Shown here: positions 15,001 to 27,000 of the stretch, one piece after another | How positions within the stretch are numbered: the first letter of the stretch is position 1 | Layout of the letters: the number at the start of each line of letters is the position of its first letter | DNA from: an uncultured bacterium | GTDB lineage: Bacteria; Patescibacteriota; Minisyncoccia; UBA6257; 2-01-FULL-56-20 | Assembly (NCBI GenBank): GCA_963844965.1 | Contig: CAWJQC010000008.1 | Span: 1 to 64,000 of the forward strand | DNA: 64,000 bases | Direction of reading: 5' to 3' | Made by a program: the position numbers

Positions 15001-18000
15001 TCTTCGGTACGGACTCACCGCTGTTTGCCACAATTGCCGAGACAGGAGCCTCAAGCGCGCGGCGCATGATATCCCAAGCCGCCTTCACAACTGCAACGTT
15101 TTTTTCACCAACTCCGCTGATAGAAAGGCGTACAAGCACATTGAAAAGCGCGATGCCGCCGCCTGCCACAATTCCTTCTTCCATCGCCGCACGGGTAGCC
15201 GCTACCGCGTCTTCAACTCTTTGCTTTAATTCTTTCTGCGCGGCTTCCGTCGGCGCGCCGACTTTGATAACGGCCACACCGCCGGAAAGTTTGCCGAGTC
15301 GTTCCTGAAGTTTCTCTTTGTCAAAATCGGAATCGGTTTTTTTTATCTGCGTCTTGAGCTGGGCAATCCTGTCATCAATGGCTTTCTTTTCTCCTTTGCC
15401 GCCGACAATCGTCGTATTATCTTTGTTGGACACGACGCGGTGCGCGTGGCCCAAATCCGAGACCTCCACGTTCTCCAGTTTTTTTCCCAAATCCTCGGAT
15501 ATAAATTGCGCGCCGGTTACAACGGCGATGTCCTGCAACATCTCCTTGCGCCTGTCGCCGAAACCCGGCGCCTTCACCGCCAAGACGCTGAAAATTCCGC
15601 GGAGTTTGTTCACGACGAGCGTCGCCAATGCCTCGCCTTCCACTTCTTCGGCGATAATTACAAGTTCTTTCTTGCCGCTTTGCACTATTTTTTCCAAAAG
15701 CTGAAGGATATCGGAAATCGCCGAAATTTTCTTATCGGTCACCAAAATATAAGGATCTTCAAGTTCCGCCTCCATCCTCTCCTGGTTCGTAATCATGTAA
15801 GCGGAAACGTATCCGCGGTCAAACTGCATACCTTCCACAAGTTCGTAAGTATTGCCGATGGCGTTGGAATCCTCAATCGTCACAACTCCTTCCTTGCCGA
15901 TCTTTCCCATAACTTCTGCGATAAGGCGACCGATTTCCCCGTCTTTCGCGGCAAGCGTGGCGACTTCCTCAACCTTCTTCGCATCGTTTATAACCTCCTT
16001 TTGTTTTTCAAGGCCGTCAATAACGGCTTTTGAGCCCTTTTTTAGCTCCTCGGCAAGATGAATGACGTTAAATCCTTTCTCGCTGATGGTTTTTTCGCCT
16101 TCGTCAATCATCGCGTGCGCGAGAACGACCGCGGTCGTCGTGCCATCACCAACGTTGTCGTTGGTTTTCTCCGCGGCCTGCTTGATAAATTCCGCGCCGA
16201 GATTTTCCCATTTACCCTCAAGCTCCACTTCCTTGGCGACGGTGACGCCGTCAAACGTTACTTGAGGAGCGCCATAGCCCTTTTCTATAACCACCGCCCG
16301 TCCGCGCGGACCGAGTGTCATCGTAACCGCCTGCGCCAACTTATCAATGCCGTGCTTGATAGCCGCGCGCGCTTCTTCGTTGAATTTGATTTGCTTACTC
16401 ATTTAATTTGTGTAGCGATGCTAATATGCGAATAATGCTAATTATACTAATCTACAAATCCACATTATTTCATTCGCATCATTAGTAAAATTAGTATATT
16501 GGCATCGATACTATTCAATAATCGCAAGGATGTCCTCTTCGTCCCCGACGAGATATTTCTTATCGTCAATTTCAATCTCGTCCGGACCATATTTTTTGAA
16601 GAGGACGATGTCGCCGACCTTTACCGACATCGGTTGCAATTCTCCCTTGTCGTTCCGCTTCCCCGGACCGACCGCAAGCACCTTGCCCCTTATGGGCTTT
16701 TCTTTTTCCGCCGAGTCGGGCAAAACAATTCCCGACTTCGTCGTTTTTTCTTCCTCCAGCGGCTCAATAAAAACGTGGTTGGATAATGGTTTGAACTTCA
16801 TGTGTTAAATTTTGTGTTTGACCTTTGTTTGGCATTTTAGCGCGGCATTGGCAATCGTGTCAAGCAATTGCTAATTCACAACTTTTCCACACAAAAATGC
16901 GCCTGTCGGAAGCCTAGAATATCAAAAGCCCGCAATACAATACGCGGGCCTTTGATTTTTAATCCGCATGAGCACAAAGATTGGTGCTACTTCAGATGAT
17001 CGTAAATATTCAGTACTGCTTTTATCGCGTCCCCAACTGAAATATTGTTCTGCCTGTAAGGAAGGTCGGTGACGTCCCCGGCGGCCCAAATTCCTTCGCG
17101 GGAGGTCGCCTGTGTCTTCGGGTCAACAATAATTTCTCCGTGCTTGTTCAGGTGAACCATGTCCTTCACAAAATCCGAGTTCGGAACCAGTCCCACCTCC
17201 ACAAAAACCCCTTCCACTTTCAGCTCTTTAACATTTCCGCTCTTTCTGTCTTTGTACCTGAGGCCGGAAACGAATTCTTTGCCCAAAATTTCCAAGGTTT
17301 CGGCGCTCGTTATGATCTCAGCATTCGCGTTATTCCTAATTCTTTCAAGCGTCACCGCGTCGCCCTTCACGGAATCCATATATTCCAAAACATAGATCTT
17401 GGAGGCGTATGGGAGTAGGTCCGTGACCGCCTCAAGTCCGGCGTTGCCGCCGCCTACGACCGCCACGACTTTGTCTTTGAAGATCGGCGCGTCGCAGGTG
17501 GAACAGTACACCACGCCTTTGCCGTCAAACTCTTTTTCGCCGGGAACGCCGAGCTTTTTCCGGCGGCTCCCCGATGCGATGAGAACATACTTGGTTTCAA
17601 AAACTTTGCCCTTTTCCGTATTTATTTCAAAACCCTCTTTTAATTTTTTCACGCCGACCGCCAAGTCCTTAACAATTTCAATTCTTTCCTGGGCGCGGAG
17701 GTGTTCCTCAAGATTTTTTGCCAACTCAAAACCGGAAATGGATTTCGTACCGATCCAGTTCTGAATTTCCGCGGAAACCAAAGACTGCCCACCGAAGCCA
17801 TTGGTGACAAGAAGTGTTTTGATTTTTTTTCTGGCCGAATAGATTCCGGCGGCAACGCCACCGGGACCGCCGCCGATGATGATTAATTCGTACATTGTTT
17901 TGTGAAATGTAAATTGCGACATGGGAAATGGAAATTCCGTGTCGCTTTTTACATGTCGCTATTTCACCCCGAGAAGCGCCGCCAGCGTTTCCTGGTCAAA

Positions 18001-24000: not shown

Positions 24001-27000
24001 AAGCGCCTCGCCGCAAACGCTTCAAGAGCTCGTCAGCGAAAACGGAATCAACGTCGTGGTAATTCCGAGGCACTTGAAACATAATCCGCGCCTGGCCGCG
24101 AAACTTTATGGGCTGCTTACCGCCGGCGCGGAGATCCACGACCTTACGAACTTTTACGAACTAATTCTGAGAAAAATCCCGCTCGCCGATCTTGAGGAAG
24201 CGTGGTTCCTGGAAAACCTGGCAAACCGAAAGAAATTCTACGACCAATTGAAGCGCGCGTCAGAATTTCTGGCTGCGCTCCTCATATTTATCGTCCTCTT
24301 CCCGATCGAAGCCCTCATAGCAATCATAATAAAAATCACGTCGCCCGGACCCGTGATCTACAAACAAATCCGCATTGGCGAAAACAGCCGCGACTTTACG
24401 TTCTATAAATTCCGCACTATGCCGGTGGATGCCGAAAAAGATGGCGCAAAATGGGCTCCGCCGGGAGACAAAAGAGCAACAGTGTTCGGCAGATTTCTCC
24501 GCCGGACGCATATAGACGAACTACCCCAGCTTATAAACATAATGGAAGGCAATCTTTCATTCGTGGGACCGAGACCGGAACGGCCGGAGTTTGTTAAAAT
24601 ATTGAAGGAGAAAATCCCGTACTACGAAGCAAGACTCTTGTAAAACCCGGAGTCACCGGCTGGGCGCAAATCAACCACCACAAAGACACAACTGTGGATG
24701 ACGTCAAAGAAAAATTGCAATATGACATATACTACGTAAAAAACCGCTCTTTCGTATTGGATATGGCAATAATATTAAAAACAATAAGGTCGCTGTTCGT
24801 AACGCCAAAGTAAGAGTAATCGCCAATAACGCGAATGTCGGCAAATAATGCAAATAGAAATTCGCATTATTAAAATAAATTAGCATTACTCGCGAATACT
24901 ATAATGAAAATCATCATCACGGGCGGGGCCGGATTCATCGCCTCCCACGTCGCCGACGCTTACATAAAAGCCGGCCATAAAATTGTAATCATAGACAGCC
25001 TCCTCACGGGTTTCAGAAAAAATTTGAATCCCAAAGCTAAGTTTTACAAGGCCGATATCAGAAATCTCGCCTTGATGGAAAAAATTTTCGGGCGCGAACG
25101 GCCGGAAATCGTTAACCACCACGCGGCCATCGCCGAAGTCGTGAAATCCGTGCGTAATCCGATTCCGACTTTCCAAACAAACGTTTTGGGCACCGCGAAC
25201 GTGCTTTTGTCCTTTGGCAAATACGGCCATGGCAAAAACAAAAAATTTATTTTCTCTTCCACCGGCGGCGCGATGTACGGAATGCCGAAGCATCTTCCAG
25301 CCGCAGAAACCGAAGCAACAATAACCCTTTCCCCGTATGGCCTCTCCAAGCATCTGGGAGAAGAAGTGATCAAATTCTACGCAAGGCAGTACAGCTTCAA
25401 TTATTTCATCTTCCGCTACGCGAACGTGTACGGTCCGCGCCAAAACCCGAAAGGCGAAGCGGGCGTCGTCGCAATCTTCGGCGGTCTCGTGAAAAGAGGC
25501 CTCAGGCCCACAATTTTCGGCGACGGCACTAAGGCGCGCGACTACGTATTCGTGGACGACATTGTGCACGCGAACCTACTCGCTCTCCGCCACAAAAAGA
25601 ACGAGACAGCGAATCTCGGCTGGGGGAAACTCACAACCGACCAGATGATCTTTGACACCATCGCCCGCAAAACCGGTTTCAAACAGAAACCGATATACGC
25701 GCCCTATCGCAAGGGCGAGGTCTACCGCATTTCAATTGACGCCAAAAAAGCGCGGAGGATTCTCGGCTGGAAACCGAAAACCAAATTGAACGAAGGAATA
25801 AGAAAAACTCTCGCGAGTTTATAATTGCCAATTACCGGTACCATCGCAGAGGATGTAGGACCGTTTTCGAGAGGCTGAATGATGCGACGATATGGATTCC
25901 AGCTTGCGACCGCGGATTGAAGTATAAAAAAGCGGCCCGGTATGATCGTGCCGCCCTAGGTGGATCCCTACAGAGAAGTCACTTTCTTGAGTTTAGAAAT
26001 AACTTGGCGAAGCCTTCTCGCGACTTCACCTTCCGTAGCGTCTTCGGCCATCGAACTGACCGGGGAACCGTGTTTGTATTGATATTCTGCTGCTTTCGCC
26101 TCTTTCTGAAGACCTCGGATAACGCTTTTTAGTTTCATTTCCGACTCCTTCAAACATCTAAACGCCTGCCGATATTTTACTTCCATCTTTTTGAAAAGTC
26201 AATCACCGCGGGCTAAAGCCCGCGGCTTGTGTTCGGCTCCTGTTCCCACTGGTTTCTGATATATTCTCTCATCGCTTTTTCGTTTTGACGGCCAACGGTT
26301 TCGGCAAAGTAACCATCCTGCCACAAGCTGTCTCCCCAGAGGAATTCTTCCAGCTCGGGAAATTCTTTTCTGACAGCCCTGGACGTACCGCCTTTGAGAT
26401 AAAACACCGCTTTGGCAACCGTCAGGGTAGCAGGAATTTGAAGCAATAGATGGACATGGTCGGGCATTATCTGCGCTTCATGGATGAACCATTTATTCAT
26501 CTTGGCGGCTTGAAAGAACAATGTCTTGAGTCGCCCGACCATGTCCCCTCGCAGTATCGAGCGGCGGTACTTTGGGCAGAAAACAACGTGGTACAAACAT
26601 CGCGTATAGCTGTGGTTGCTTGGCCAGAATCCAGAGGGCATTATCTTCATTATCGCACCGGCAGAAACCAGTGGGAACAGGCAAATAAGCCCTCCGCCCC
26701 TCGCTTCGCTCGGGGCTACGGGGTCGCCTTATCCTCGGCCTAAAGGCCGGGGCTTGCGGCGGAGCGGGTCAAATGATGGCATGCAGGAGCGGACGATCTT
26801 CGAATGCACTACTTAATGAACTTAAATATGCCAGAGGCGGGGCTCTGACAAACAGCACTACCCGAAGATGCGGAGCTGACATCCCAGACCGTACCCCCTC
26901 CCGTAATAGTGCTCGATCCGGAAAGTTTCATTTTTATAGGTTGGCCATATGGATAAATAGTTACAATATCCCCAGGATCAATTTTTGCTACATCGCACAG

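What the first reader, a model, noticed from the sequence alone, without database searches (positions are those of the whole stretch)
16415..24903. Family of imperfect palindromic MITE/REP-like repeats in intergenic gaps, several with a CCTGCCGGCAGG hairpin core
Five related elements sit between operons at 16415-16508 (inside the groES-groEL spacer), 18199-18315, 20534-20657, 22590-22692 and 24815-24903. They share arms such as cgatRcYaatatactaat / attagtaMaat..gtatattggYatc and gtaatcgccaataacRcgaat / attcgcgtta. Three carry the perfect palindrome CCTGCCGGCAGG (18231-18250, 20629-20645, 22675-22690). The 20534-20657 copy is bounded by perfect 12-bp terminal inverted repeats. No ORF is associated. 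Such repeats may be miniature transposable elements, REP-like RNA stability or termination elements, or binding sites. Inserting one between groES and groEL is unusual, because that spacer is normally very short.
Basis: seen in the sequence. Interest (0 to 1): 0.6.

Follow-up and report, generated by a model that had tools for sequence, protein, structure and literature searches.

The report
Hairpin repeat elements between Parcubacteria genes
Five gene spacers in this candidate-phyla-radiation bacterium hold inserted hairpin-forming repeat DNA of a family also found at other sites in related genomes, and three carry a 20-base GC-rich palindrome that occurs, letter for letter, in many bacterial phyla and in phages.

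Summary
The five imperfect palindromes exist and fold far better than shuffles, but they are not one uniform family. E1/E2 and E4/E5 are two subfamilies of one AT-rich repeat built from about 9-nt words. A chimeric copy in another genome links the two subfamilies. E3 is a separate 130-nt element with perfect 12-bp ends.

The organism is a Parcubacteria (Patescibacteria) member without Shine-Dalgarno sites. Homologues of E1/E2/E4/E5 lie at non-orthologous sites in at least six related genomes. Relatives show clean empty sites: a 4-nt groES-groEL spacer, and a PAP2 promoter directly abutting its ATG. Among 87 related loci the groES-groEL spacer is bimodal (2-30 nt or 72-155 nt). Almost every long spacer is one hairpin with 7-9-nt periodic arms but unalignable sequence.

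The "core" is a variant of the 20-nt palindrome CCTGCCTGCCGGCAGGCAGG. It was found in more than 120 genome stretches across many phyla and in 47 viral stretches. It is mostly intergenic, sometimes nested in itself, and often cleanly interrupts heptamer arrays.

Best reading: non-autonomous palindromic insertion elements (MITE/REPIN-like), tolerated because folding restores stop-start proximity. The mobilising enzyme is unknown, and an RNA-level function is not excluded.

The parts
16415..16508 (.). E1: AT-rich imperfect palindrome filling the groES-groEL spacer. Arms are 16417-16451 and 16472-16506, built from about 9-nt words (ATGCCAAT, ATACTAAT, ATGCGAAT).
   Evidence: z -3.4 / -3.8. An independent assembly, L001, is identical. 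Empty site in L003, L012 and L026. A homologous element occupies the same spacer in L046 (92 nt, 72%).
18204..18315 (.). E2: outer 13-17-bp inverted ends (18207-18223 / 18297-18313) enclosing an AT-rich inner hairpin and the GC module. It lies between the SPW gene remnant and the glutaredoxin gene.
   Evidence: z about -7. The right arm is 91% identical over 45 nt to L046 3188-3232, which is a different locus.
18231..18250 (.). GC module copy in E2: CCTGCCTACCGGCAGGCAGG, the 20-nt palindrome with one G-to-A change.
   Evidence: The same variant is common in other phyla.
20533..20662 (.). E3: 130-nt element with perfect 12-bp terminal inverted repeats. It is inserted between the -10 region and the ATG of the PAP2-family gene (19876-20532, minus strand), so it forms that gene's 5' leader.
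   Evidence: The empty-site alignment shows TGTATAATT-N6-11-ATG in L003, L008 and L009. Promoter-like site at 20704-20677 on the minus strand.
20635..20650 (.). GC module copy in E3: CCTGCCTGCCGGCAGG, lacking the 3' CAGG unit.
22579..22704 (+). E4: member of the E4/E5 subfamily. The left arm (22579-22621) overlaps the last codons and the stop of the GT4 glycosyltransferase gene. The right end stops 2 nt before the ATG of the GT2 gene (22705).
   Evidence: (nhmmer E 8.5e-11).
22675..22690 (.). GC module copy in E4: CCTGCCGGCAGGCAGG, lacking the 5' CCTG unit. It is an insertion relative to the paralogue E5 (..GCATTA-C-TCGCGAAT.. against ..GCGTTA-[module]-TTCGCGAT..).
   Evidence: read directly from the sequence.
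24813..24901 (+). E5: compact member of the E4/E5 subfamily. It begins right after the stop of the frameshifted sugar-transferase gene and ends 2-5 nt before the epimerase ATG (24904).
   Evidence: (E 1.2e-11). Full-length homologues lie 5' of groES in L017 and L037 (95-97 nt, 72-73%, E 2.6e-10).
33267..33377 (.). Example of the other hairpins in the window with heptamer-periodic arms (AAATGTA words). Further ones lie at 3430-3513, 10095-10230, 13134-13208, 17905-17964 and 18615-18657.
   Evidence: lag-7 identity 0.5-0.8.
26213..26650 (-). IS200/IS605-family Y1 (HUH) transposase gene, 1.3 kb from E5. It is a candidate class of hairpin-specific single-strand DNA enzyme. No sequence link to E1-E5 was found.
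   Evidence: Y1_Tnp, 9e-39. (IS200 model 130.8 bits; RAYT model 38.6, below its cut-off of 80)..

Best explanation
E1-E5 are non-autonomous palindromic insertion elements, MITE/REPIN-like, of a Parcubacteria lineage.

Anatomy:
- Each element is two inverted arms made of degenerate short tandem words, about 9 nt in the E1/E2/E4/E5 family and mostly 7 nt in sister families.
- Single-stranded DNA, or the transcript, therefore folds into one long imperfect hairpin.

Behaviour (shown):
- Elements sit in the very short spacers of a compact, Shine-Dalgarno-less genome, directly after a stop codon and 2-13 nt before the next ATG.
- They are gained and lost between relatives, recombine with one another, and serve as landing sites for a second, much smaller element.
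- That smaller element is the 20-nt palindrome (CCTG)2CCGG(CAGG)2.

Inferred steps:
- Because the insert folds back on itself, the stop codon and the next start (or the promoter and the start) return to within about 12 nt. This would preserve translational coupling and initiation, which would explain why inserts are tolerated even inside groES-groEL.
- Spread probably goes through single-strand hairpin intermediates. Candidates are a Y1/HUH-type enzyme acting in trans, or template switching during replication.
- No enzyme has been tied to the elements.
For: 1. Homologous copies at non-orthologous sites in other genomes.
- The E4/E5 left arm AGAGTAATCGCNAATAAYGCGAAT-N6-AAATAAYGCGAAT has 27 invariant columns across seven aligned rows from six elements (the near-symmetrical L037 element enters on both strands). 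The six elements come from five genomes.
- Their sites are: 5' of groES (L017, L037), inside the groES-groEL spacer (L059), 3' of groEL (L046), and the two window sites.
- E1/E2 ends recur in L046 (two sites), L027 and L049.
- L046 3111-3240 joins an E5-type left end to an E2-type right end.

2. Empty sites. The groES-groEL spacer is 2-8 nt in L003, L012 and L026 against 82-108 nt in the window, L046, L002 and L009. The PAP2 leader lacks E3 in L003, L008 and L009.

3. Spacer lengths are bimodal over 87 loci: 34 at 30 nt or less, 50 at 72 nt or more.

4. The 41 distinct long spacers:
- median z is -4.2;
- 28 fold as a single hairpin;
- the hairpin starts a median 2 nt after the stop and ends a median 10 nt before the ATG;
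- the best lag is 7 in 23 of them.
- Their sequences are unalignable, but vocabularies recur across genomes and loci.

5. The phenomenon is general. Of 333 intergenic gaps of 60-220 nt in this clade, 108 hold a strong hairpin, in every gene orientation.

6. The left terminus carries stop codons in three frames. It abuts the upstream stop in E5, L046 and L059, or supplies the stop in E4.

7. No strand preference for folding in the groES-groEL set: 23 antisense against 14 sense, p=0.19. The sense transcripts of E5 and L017 fold poorly (-18 and -13 kcal/mol) and their complements fold well (-32 and -27). The window-wide GC skew matches the better-folding strand. All of this points to DNA palindromes rather than hairpins selected in mRNA.

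8. The GC module behaves as an insertion.
- It is present in E4 and absent at the same point of E5.
- It is found nested in its own centre.
- Deleting it restores an in-phase 7- or 8-nt tandem array in 18 of 183 instances, against about 1 in controls.
Against: - No target-site duplication flanks E1-E5 (read) or the GC module.
- Only 2+2 related copies lie in 64 kb, all within 8.5 kb.
- Neither transposase in the window has ends resembling the elements. The Y1 gene shows no enrichment near the GC module.
- The groES-groEL spacer is occupied about 2.6 times more often than other co-directional gaps: 37% against 14% by the same criteria. The E4/E5-type copies all face the same way relative to the flanking genes (5 of 5). 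Both points could mean selection for a function.
- Copies in different genomes are only 72-91% identical, so recent transposition is not demonstrated.
Confidence: 0.55

Rival explanations
1. The elements are functional cis-acting RNA. They would be intercistronic or leader stem-loops acting as RNase III processing sites, mRNA stabilisers, RNA thermometers or translational couplers. Selection would hold position and structure while the sequence drifts.
For: - Hairpins occupy the same place (stop +2 nt to ATG -10 nt) in most related groES-groEL operons despite unalignable sequence.
- Occupancy of this spacer exceeds that of other co-directional gaps.
- E4/E5-type copies share one orientation relative to transcription.
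- The genome lacks Shine-Dalgarno sites: 4 of 56 starts against a 10% background. Structure near start codons could therefore matter.
Against: - There is no excess of sense-strand stability. Sense E5 folds with z only -2.5, and the L017 sense strand reaches only -13 kcal/mol.
- Many close relatives do without any spacer hairpin.
- The same hairpin types occur between convergent and divergent genes.
- The AUG is not sequestered, so these are not classical thermometers.
- No Rfam family matches.
- Covariation could not be assessed with three alignable copies.
Confidence: 0.2
2. The hairpins arise locally and repeatedly through replication slippage plus intra-strand template switching in AT-rich spacers. 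No transposition is involved. Shared vocabularies would reflect mutational convergence or gene conversion.
For: - The arms are tandem arrays with the same mismatch repeated in every unit. In L002, for example, TCAAGCG words pair with CCTGACG words.
- Relatives differ by whole-unit indels.
- There are no target-site duplications.
- Word periods vary (7, 8, 9, 10, 11).
Against: - Blocks of 45-97 nt are homologous between different loci in different genomes. Convergence is not a credible source of these.
- Element termini are conserved.
- Clean whole-element presence/absence is seen at two sites.
Confidence: 0.1
3. The elements are DNA operator arrays for a transcription factor or nucleoid protein. 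The repeated 12-mers AATAATGCGAAT/ATTCGCATTATT would be binding sites controlling stress and envelope genes.
For: - The conserved 12-mer occurs twice per arm in inverted arrangement.
- Copies lie next to groES, groEL and glutaredoxin genes. Here canonical CIRCE is absent from the window.
Against: - The link to groESL is a sampling artefact, because the groES-centred relative loci (L011-L090) were chosen by a groES match.
- In the window, copies flank unrelated glycosyltransferase genes.
- The elements sit downstream of promoters, inside operons, or at the 3' ends of genes.
- L017, L027 and L049 keep CIRCE alongside the element.
Confidence: 0.07
4. The elements are guide-RNA arrays (TIGR-Tas or CRISPR-like) or intrinsic terminators.
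For: - TIGR systems are reported in candidate-phyla-radiation bacteria, and their arrays carry about 9-nt variable segments and palindromic parts (PMC12045711).
- The GC module sometimes sits between A- and T-tracts in other genomes (L021, L200).
Against: - No Nop-domain (Tas) or Cas gene appears among the 60 window ORFs scanned.
- There are no tandem 36-nt units.
- The elements are single hairpins scattered between genes.
- No T-tract follows E1-E5, and the terminator scan gives no hit in them.
Confidence: 0.02

Closest known systems
REPINs (REP doublets forming hairpins) mobilised by RAYT transposases (PMC3116915)
   Same: Extragenic, non-coding, two inverted conserved ends with a variable spacer. 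They fold as hairpins in single-stranded DNA or mRNA, insert into or next to each other, and form distinct within-genome families.
   Different: - No cognate RAYT was found. The only Y1 gene in the window scores as an IS200 transposase, and its flanking hairpins are unrelated.
- The arms are AT-rich tandem word arrays rather than one GC-rich 20-35-nt REP.
- High copy number is not demonstrated.
Bacterial MITEs such as Correia/NEMIS, RUP, ERIC and Rickettsia palindromic elements
   Same: About 90-130 nt, with terminal inverted repeats and no ORF. Presence/absence varies between relatives, the elements are co-transcribed with flanking genes, and they can overlap ORF ends (E4).
   Different: - No target-site duplication.
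- No matching autonomous insertion sequence.
- Whole-length palindromy with an internal 7-9-nt periodicity.
Heptamer direct repeats: TAACTGA in Beggiatoaceae, Cyanobacteria and Bacteroidetes (PMC4679880), and cyanobacterial STRR sequences (my own knowledge)
   Same: - Short-period (7-nt) intergenic arrays ending a few nt before start codons.
- The genes involved lack Shine-Dalgarno sites.
- Stop codons in all frames.
- Patchy cross-phylum distribution.
- Indels in 7-nt steps.
   Different: Those are direct tandem arrays of one fixed heptamer. Here the arrays come as inverted pairs forming hairpins, with many vocabularies, and E1-E5 use about 9-nt words.
Very small nested palindromic elements: cyanobacterial small dispersed repeats (Elhai et al. 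2008; the paper is not held in the library, so this rests on my own knowledge) and yeast mitochondrial GC clusters (own knowledge)
   Same: These resemble the 20-nt GC module. All are tiny GC-rich palindromes found inside AT-rich spacers, inside other repeats, inside heptamer arrays and inside each other, and all are far too small to encode anything.
   Different: The sequences are unrelated. The module here is conserved exactly across many bacterial phyla and phages, whereas those families are lineage-restricted. No target duplication was seen.

Membership tests
MITE | Terminal inverted repeats | tested here: met
   - E3: 12/12.
- E1/E2: GATRCCAATAT ends on both sides.
- E4/E5: AGTAATCGC against GCGAATACT, 8/9.
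MITE | Target-site duplication flanking the element | tested here: not met
   No direct repeat flanks E1 or E3 when compared with empty sites, nor E2, E4 or E5 by reading.
MITE | Small, non-coding, present at some orthologous sites and absent at others | tested here: met
   The elements are 90-130 nt with no ORF. Empty sites are seen in relatives.
MITE | Many copies within one genome | tested here: inconclusive
   There are 2+2 related copies in 64 kb and one or two per roughly 5-20 kb sampled in five other genomes.
MITE | An autonomous element with the same termini | tested here: not met
   The ends of the IS200-type element (26205-26750) and of the rve-type element (59169-60091) do not match. 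A 9-nt identity to the E3 repeat lies in the wrong orientation. Only the window could be tested.
REP/REPIN-RAYT | Two inverted conserved units separated by a variable spacer, folding as a hairpin, extragenic | tested here: met
REP/REPIN-RAYT | A cognate RAYT gene flanked by the repeat | tested here: not met
   The Y1 protein scores 130.8 bits on the IS200 model and 38.6 on the RAYT model, whose cut-off is 80. Its flanks hold different hairpins. The rest of the genome was not testable.
REP/REPIN-RAYT | The most over-represented 16-mers of the genome | not testable with these tools
   This needs the complete source genome.
Heptamer direct-repeat arrays (STRR / TAACTGA type) | Head-to-tail copies of one heptamer | tested here: not met
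   The arms of E1, E2 and E5 peak at lag 9 with identity 0.50-0.55. E3 shows no periodicity and E4 only a weak one. Other hairpins in the window do show lag 7 (0.6-0.8), but as inverted pairs.
TIGR-Tas array | An adjacent Nop-domain Tas gene and tandem 36-nt dual-spacer units | tested here: not met
   No such domain appears in the 60 window ORFs scanned. There is no 36-nt tandem unit. Criteria taken from PMC12045711.
CIRCE (HrcA operator) | TTAGCACTC-N9-GAGTGCTAA | tested here: not met
   No match with up to 3 mismatches anywhere in the window.
Intrinsic terminator | GC-rich stem followed by a T-run | tested here: not met
   No terminator-like site falls inside E1-E5. Canonical terminators lie elsewhere, for example at 14660-14700, 16925-16965 and 18571-18612.
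Any Rfam RNA family | Covariance-model match | tested here: not met
   No hit at gathering score in the window. Across 16000-25500, only two chance-level hits at E<1, and neither lies inside E1-E5.

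The most novel reading that the evidence does not exclude
The 20-nt palindrome CCTGCCTGCCGGCAGGCAGG would be an active, ultra-small, broad-host-range mobile element, the smallest known. Some trans-acting and widely shared machinery would insert it, without target duplication, into short-period tandem arrays, into hairpins, into its own centre and into tRNA loops. 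This would happen in bacteria of many phyla and in their phages. The periodic-arm hairpins such as E1-E5 would be its preferred substrate. Together the two would form a cross-phylum, not yet described layer of intergenic DNA dynamics.
Probability: 0.35. Interest if true: 0.85.

Novelty: new variant of a known kind. Interest (0 to 1): 0.6.

Why it matters
1. About a third of the longer spacers sampled in this clade of candidate-phyla-radiation genomes are hairpins of this type. Recognising them prevents mis-annotation as small ORFs, ncRNAs or arrays. It also gives fast-evolving markers for strain-level population genomics of uncultured Patescibacteria.

2. Elements sitting between groES and groEL, or between a -10 box and an ATG, in an organism without Shine-Dalgarno sites make a natural experiment. 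They test how far translation re-initiation and leader function tolerate, or exploit, a 100-nt fold-back.

3. An exact 20-nt palindrome is shared by Parcubacteria, Saccharibacteria, Omnitrophota, Bacteroidota isolates, Planctomycetota, Nitrospirota, proteobacterial MAGs and phages. It repeatedly interrupts heptamer arrays cleanly. That implies either a very widespread insertion mechanism or a very widespread binding partner. I found no description of it in the literature library.

Tried and rejected
- **Rfam and tRNA scans.** Rfam at gathering and E-value thresholds and tRNA/tmRNA scans placed nothing in the elements.
- **Other element classes.** CIRCE, terminator and promoter consensus and TIGR/CRISPR arrays (plus the Pfam scans) were all rejected.
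- **Covariation.** The three alignable E5-type copies were uninformative: 1 compensatory pair, with alternative registers caused by the repeated words.
- **Strand preference.** The sense against antisense stability test on 41 groES-groEL hairpins was not significant.
- **GC module flanks.** There is no target-site duplication and no extension of the stem into the immediate flanks. An artificial-clamp folding test did not discriminate. Duplex energies showed only a modest excess of complementary flanks, 14% against 6% at -15 kcal/mol or lower.
- **GC module neighbours.** No protein family is consistently encoded nearby. The largest cluster covers 8 of 120 loci; ParB appears in 4 and Y1 transposase in 3. 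The phage contig with at least six copies shows only structural and lysis genes.
- **Artefact explanations for the GC module (adapter or chimera).** Rejected on four grounds:
  - syntenic flanks in the window;
  - the same site in four independent assemblies, L003, L004, L005 and L021;
  - presence in cultured isolates on long scaffolds;
  - intact ORFs about 100 nt away on either side.
- **E3 as a derivative of the rve insertion sequence.** Only a 9-nt identity, in the wrong orientation.
- **Walking along the 156-kb source contig.** Failed.
- **The Elhai 2008 paper.** Not held in the library.

Full report
**Organism and setting**

The window has 50% G+C. It encodes GroES (16511-16801, minus strand), GroEL (14738-16402, minus), thioredoxin reductase, glutaredoxin, DsbA, a PAP2-family protein, a VTT/DedA protein and a long run of glycosyltransferases, epimerases and flippases.

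The closest named GroEL relatives are Colwell-, Lipton-, Jorgensen- and Wolfebacteria, all Patescibacteria/Parcubacteria. The exact protein lies on a 156-kb contig held by NCBI, ENA and Logan.

Start codons are not preceded by Shine-Dalgarno motifs: 4 of 56 starts against a 10% background. GC skew is negative on the plus strand throughout, so the minus strand is the G-rich strand and probably the leading strand.

**The observation**

The five intergenic palindromes are real.
- Each folds into a long imperfect hairpin. No dinucleotide shuffle out of 200 folded as well, except for the plus (sense) strand of E5, which reached only z -2.5.
- E1 and E2 share 35 nt at 86%, and both carry GATRCCAATAT-type ends.
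- E4 and E5 share a 25-nt left end differing at one base, and 71% identity over 76 nt.
- E3 has perfect 12-bp terminal repeats but shares only the GC module with the others.
- The perfect 12-mer CCTGCCGGCAGG occurs twice, not three times.
- The arms of E1, E2 and E5 are degenerate tandem arrays with a 9-nt period (identity 0.50-0.55 at lag 9).
- The window holds at least six further hairpins whose arms have a 7-nt period and other vocabularies: 3430-3513, 10095-10230, 13134-13208, 17905-17964, 18615-18657 and 33267-33377.
- None of the elements matches an Rfam family, a tRNA, CIRCE, a terminator or a strong promoter consensus.

**Comparative evidence: the groES-groEL spacer**

Syntenic loci from relatives came from exact-protein look-ups of GroEL homologues and from a metagenome scan with GroES that returned 80 loci at 78-90% identity.

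- The groES-stop to groEL-ATG distance is bimodal: 2-30 nt in 34 loci and 72-155 nt in 50 loci.
- I analysed 41 distinct long spacers.
  - Their median z is -4.2, and 28 fold as a single hairpin.
  - The hairpin starts a median 2 nt after the stop and ends a median 10 nt before the ATG.
  - The best period is 7 nt in 23 of them.
- The sequences cannot be aligned between genomes. Vocabularies nevertheless recur: TAGAAAT, ACGAAAAT/ACGAATW, TCAAGYR with TGACRC, CTAGCCAATAGGGT, and ATGCGAAT.
- A direct alignment shows clean empty sites (..ATTGAATAA-NACC-ATGGCA..) next to filled ones.
- The residual unpaired nucleotides of the long spacers, about 12 nt, equal the length of a short spacer. So long spacer = short spacer + one hairpin insert.
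- Across all intergenic gaps of 60-220 nt in these loci, 108 of 333 hold a strong hairpin (z of -3 or lower and at least 18 bp). The hairpins occur in co-directional, convergent and divergent contexts, and 45 have clearly periodic arms, mostly with lag 7.

**A true sequence family**

The words of E1/E2/E4/E5 define a family that crosses both genomes and loci.
- E5 has full-length homologues immediately 5' of groES in L017 and L037 (95-97 nt, 72-73%, E 2.6e-10).
- A half-copy sits in the L059 groES-groEL spacer, and a further copy lies 3' of groEL in L046.
- The L046 copy joins an E5-type left end to an E2-type right end (91% over 45 nt) and has a GC-rich terminator-like hairpin at its tip. This ties the two window subfamilies together.
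- E1-type ends recur in the L046 groES-groEL spacer and 5' of groES in L027 and L049. Related copies lie at two sites in L014 (L024 carries a near-identical pair and was treated as a duplicate locus), and in L028 and L002.
- The left terminus (TAG)AGTAATCGCNAATAA carries stop codons in three frames.
  - It abuts the upstream stop in E5, L046 and L059.
  - In E4 it supplies the last four codons and the stop of the glycosyltransferase gene.
- The right terminus ends 2-5 nt before the downstream ATG in E4, E5, L017 and L037.

**E3**

In L003, L008 and L009 the PAP2-family gene is preceded by TGTATAATT plus 6-11 nt and then its ATG. In the window the 130-nt E3 sits exactly between the corresponding TTGTATGAGT and the ATG. 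A promoter-like site lies just upstream. E3 is therefore an insertion that now forms the mRNA leader. No other copy of it was found.

**DNA element or RNA element?**

The groES-groEL hairpins show no preference for sense-strand stability: 14 sense against 23 antisense, p=0.19.

In the window the minus strand folds better for four of the five elements, and for E1 it is about equal (-26.2 against -25.0 kcal/mol). This holds whichever way the genes point, and it matches the G-rich strand. E5 and its homologue L017 fold weakly as sense RNA and strongly as the complement.

This pattern fits DNA palindromes decaying under strand-biased mutation better than hairpins maintained in mRNA. Two facts keep an RNA-level role open. 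The groES-groEL spacer is occupied unusually often (37% against 14% by the same criteria). And the E4/E5-type copies all share one orientation.

**The GC module**

The 'core' is a variant of the perfect 20-nt palindrome (CCTG)2CCGG(CAGG)2.
- The window copies are all variants: one mismatch in E2, and one 4-nt unit missing in each of E3 and E4.
- In the unbiased Parcubacteria sample of 758 kb there are 6 perfect copies, 4 with one mismatch, 1 with two mismatches and a few truncated copies. Fewer than 1e-3 matches with up to two mismatches are expected by chance.
  - The hits span Parcubacteria, Saccharibacteria, WWE3, Uhr-, Doudna- and Daviesbacteria, Omnitrophota and Bacteroidota.
  - The Bacteroidota hits include cultured Winogradskyella, Olivibacter and Flagellimonas.
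  - Planctomycetota, Nitrospirota, Chloroflexota, Bdellovibrionales and proteobacterial MAGs are also represented.
- It also occurs in 47 viral-contig stretches, with at least six copies on one 29.5-kb contig.
- The flanks are not conserved and there is no target duplication.
- 73% of copies lie between ORFs, about 100 nt from each neighbour.
- Copies are found nested in the exact centre of another copy.
- In E4 the module is an insertion relative to E5.
- In 18 of 183 distinct instances, deleting the 20 nt restores an uninterrupted in-phase 7- or 8-nt tandem array. Controls give about 1.
- It also interrupts tRNA genes or tRNA fragments.
  - In L111, L142 and L252 it lies at the D-arm, and in L044 in the T-loop.
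  - In L241 it forms the long variable arm of an ARAGORN-called tRNA-Met.
- No protein family is consistently encoded nearby, and the sequence is absent from the literature library.

**Interpretation**

The best-supported reading (confidence 0.55) is that E1-E5 are non-autonomous palindromic insertion elements of a lineage-wide class. They show family structure, turnover and nesting.

Their tolerance at ORF boundaries probably reflects self-folding, which restores the original stop-start or promoter-start spacing. That step is inferred, not shown.

The mobilising activity is unknown. The window encodes an IS200-type Y1 transposase at 26213-26650 and an rve-type transposase at 59165-60055. Neither has ends matching the elements.

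They fail two membership tests for classical MITEs: no target duplication and no matching autonomous element. They fail one for REPINs: no cognate RAYT found. I therefore file them as a new variant of that kind, not as members of a named family.

The cross-phylum 20-nt module is the most unexpected result and remains unexplained.

Noticed in passing
window 26213-26650 (flanks 26205-26224, 26737-26750; inverted repeat 26239-26258 / 26662-26681): An IS200/IS605-family Y1 transposase gene. Likely end hairpins are CCGCGGGCTAAAGCCCGCGG and CGGCCTAAAGGCCG. A perfect 20-bp inverted repeat brackets most of the gene, which is unusual for IS200.
   Followed up: partly
window 59165-60055 (terminal repeats 59169-59186 / 60074-60091): An rve (DDE) transposase with 18-bp terminal inverted repeats. 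The repeats share the 9-mer GTTAGAAGC with the terminal repeat of E3, but in the opposite orientation relative to the element end.
   Followed up: partly
window 7435-9940; 12386-13742; 18326-18593; 23477-24813; 27970-29087: Five genes are split or frameshifted: ClpB, a class-V aminotransferase, the SPW protein, a bacterial sugar transferase and a polysaccharide flippase. This suggests either indel errors in the assembly or pseudogenes.
   Followed up: no
window, 25 nt upstream of 56 start codons: Shine-Dalgarno motifs are essentially absent (4 of 56 against a 10% background). The upstream regions are 65% A+T.
   Followed up: yes
window 16802-16900; L003, L009, L017, L027, L049 upstream of groES: Relatives have a canonical CIRCE operator upstream of groES. 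The window and L002 do not. They have TTAGCAATTGCTTGACACGATTGCCAAT around the -35 box instead.
   Followed up: partly
L241 2239-2330 (viral contig); L111, L142, L252, L213, L044: The 20-nt GC palindrome sits inside tRNA genes or tRNA fragments. In L241 it forms the long variable arm of a 92-nt predicted tRNA-Met(cat). In L111, L142 and L252 it lies at the D-arm (GA|GC in L111 and L142, inside the D-loop in L252). In L044 it splits the T-loop of a duplicated tRNA 3' half next to an intact tRNA-Ser.
   Followed up: partly
L093 2446, L183 1422, L159 7461 (and L168): Four of the 120 palindrome-bearing stretches encode ParB. In three of them the palindrome lies within about 250 nt of the parB gene. 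This may be chance, origin-proximal clustering, or a centromere-like role.
   Followed up: no
L062, L135, L141, L143, L160, L180, L202, L212, L218, L237: Copies of the GC palindrome cluster locally, with 2-4 copies within 0.1-4 kb. The window shows the same pattern, with three copies in 4.5 kb.
   Followed up: no
window 43811-43867, upstream of the PD-(D/E)XK (PDDEXK_3) gene 43868-44266: A short spacer built from ATACGGA-type words lies directly before the start codon. It is another example of periodic words abutting an ATG.
   Followed up: no
window 3196-3707 and 9941-10871: Two long non-coding gaps (512 and 931 nt) contain heptamer-armed hairpins and GC-rich structured stretches. Neither has an Rfam match, and either could hold unannotated RNAs or gene remnants.
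   Followed up: no
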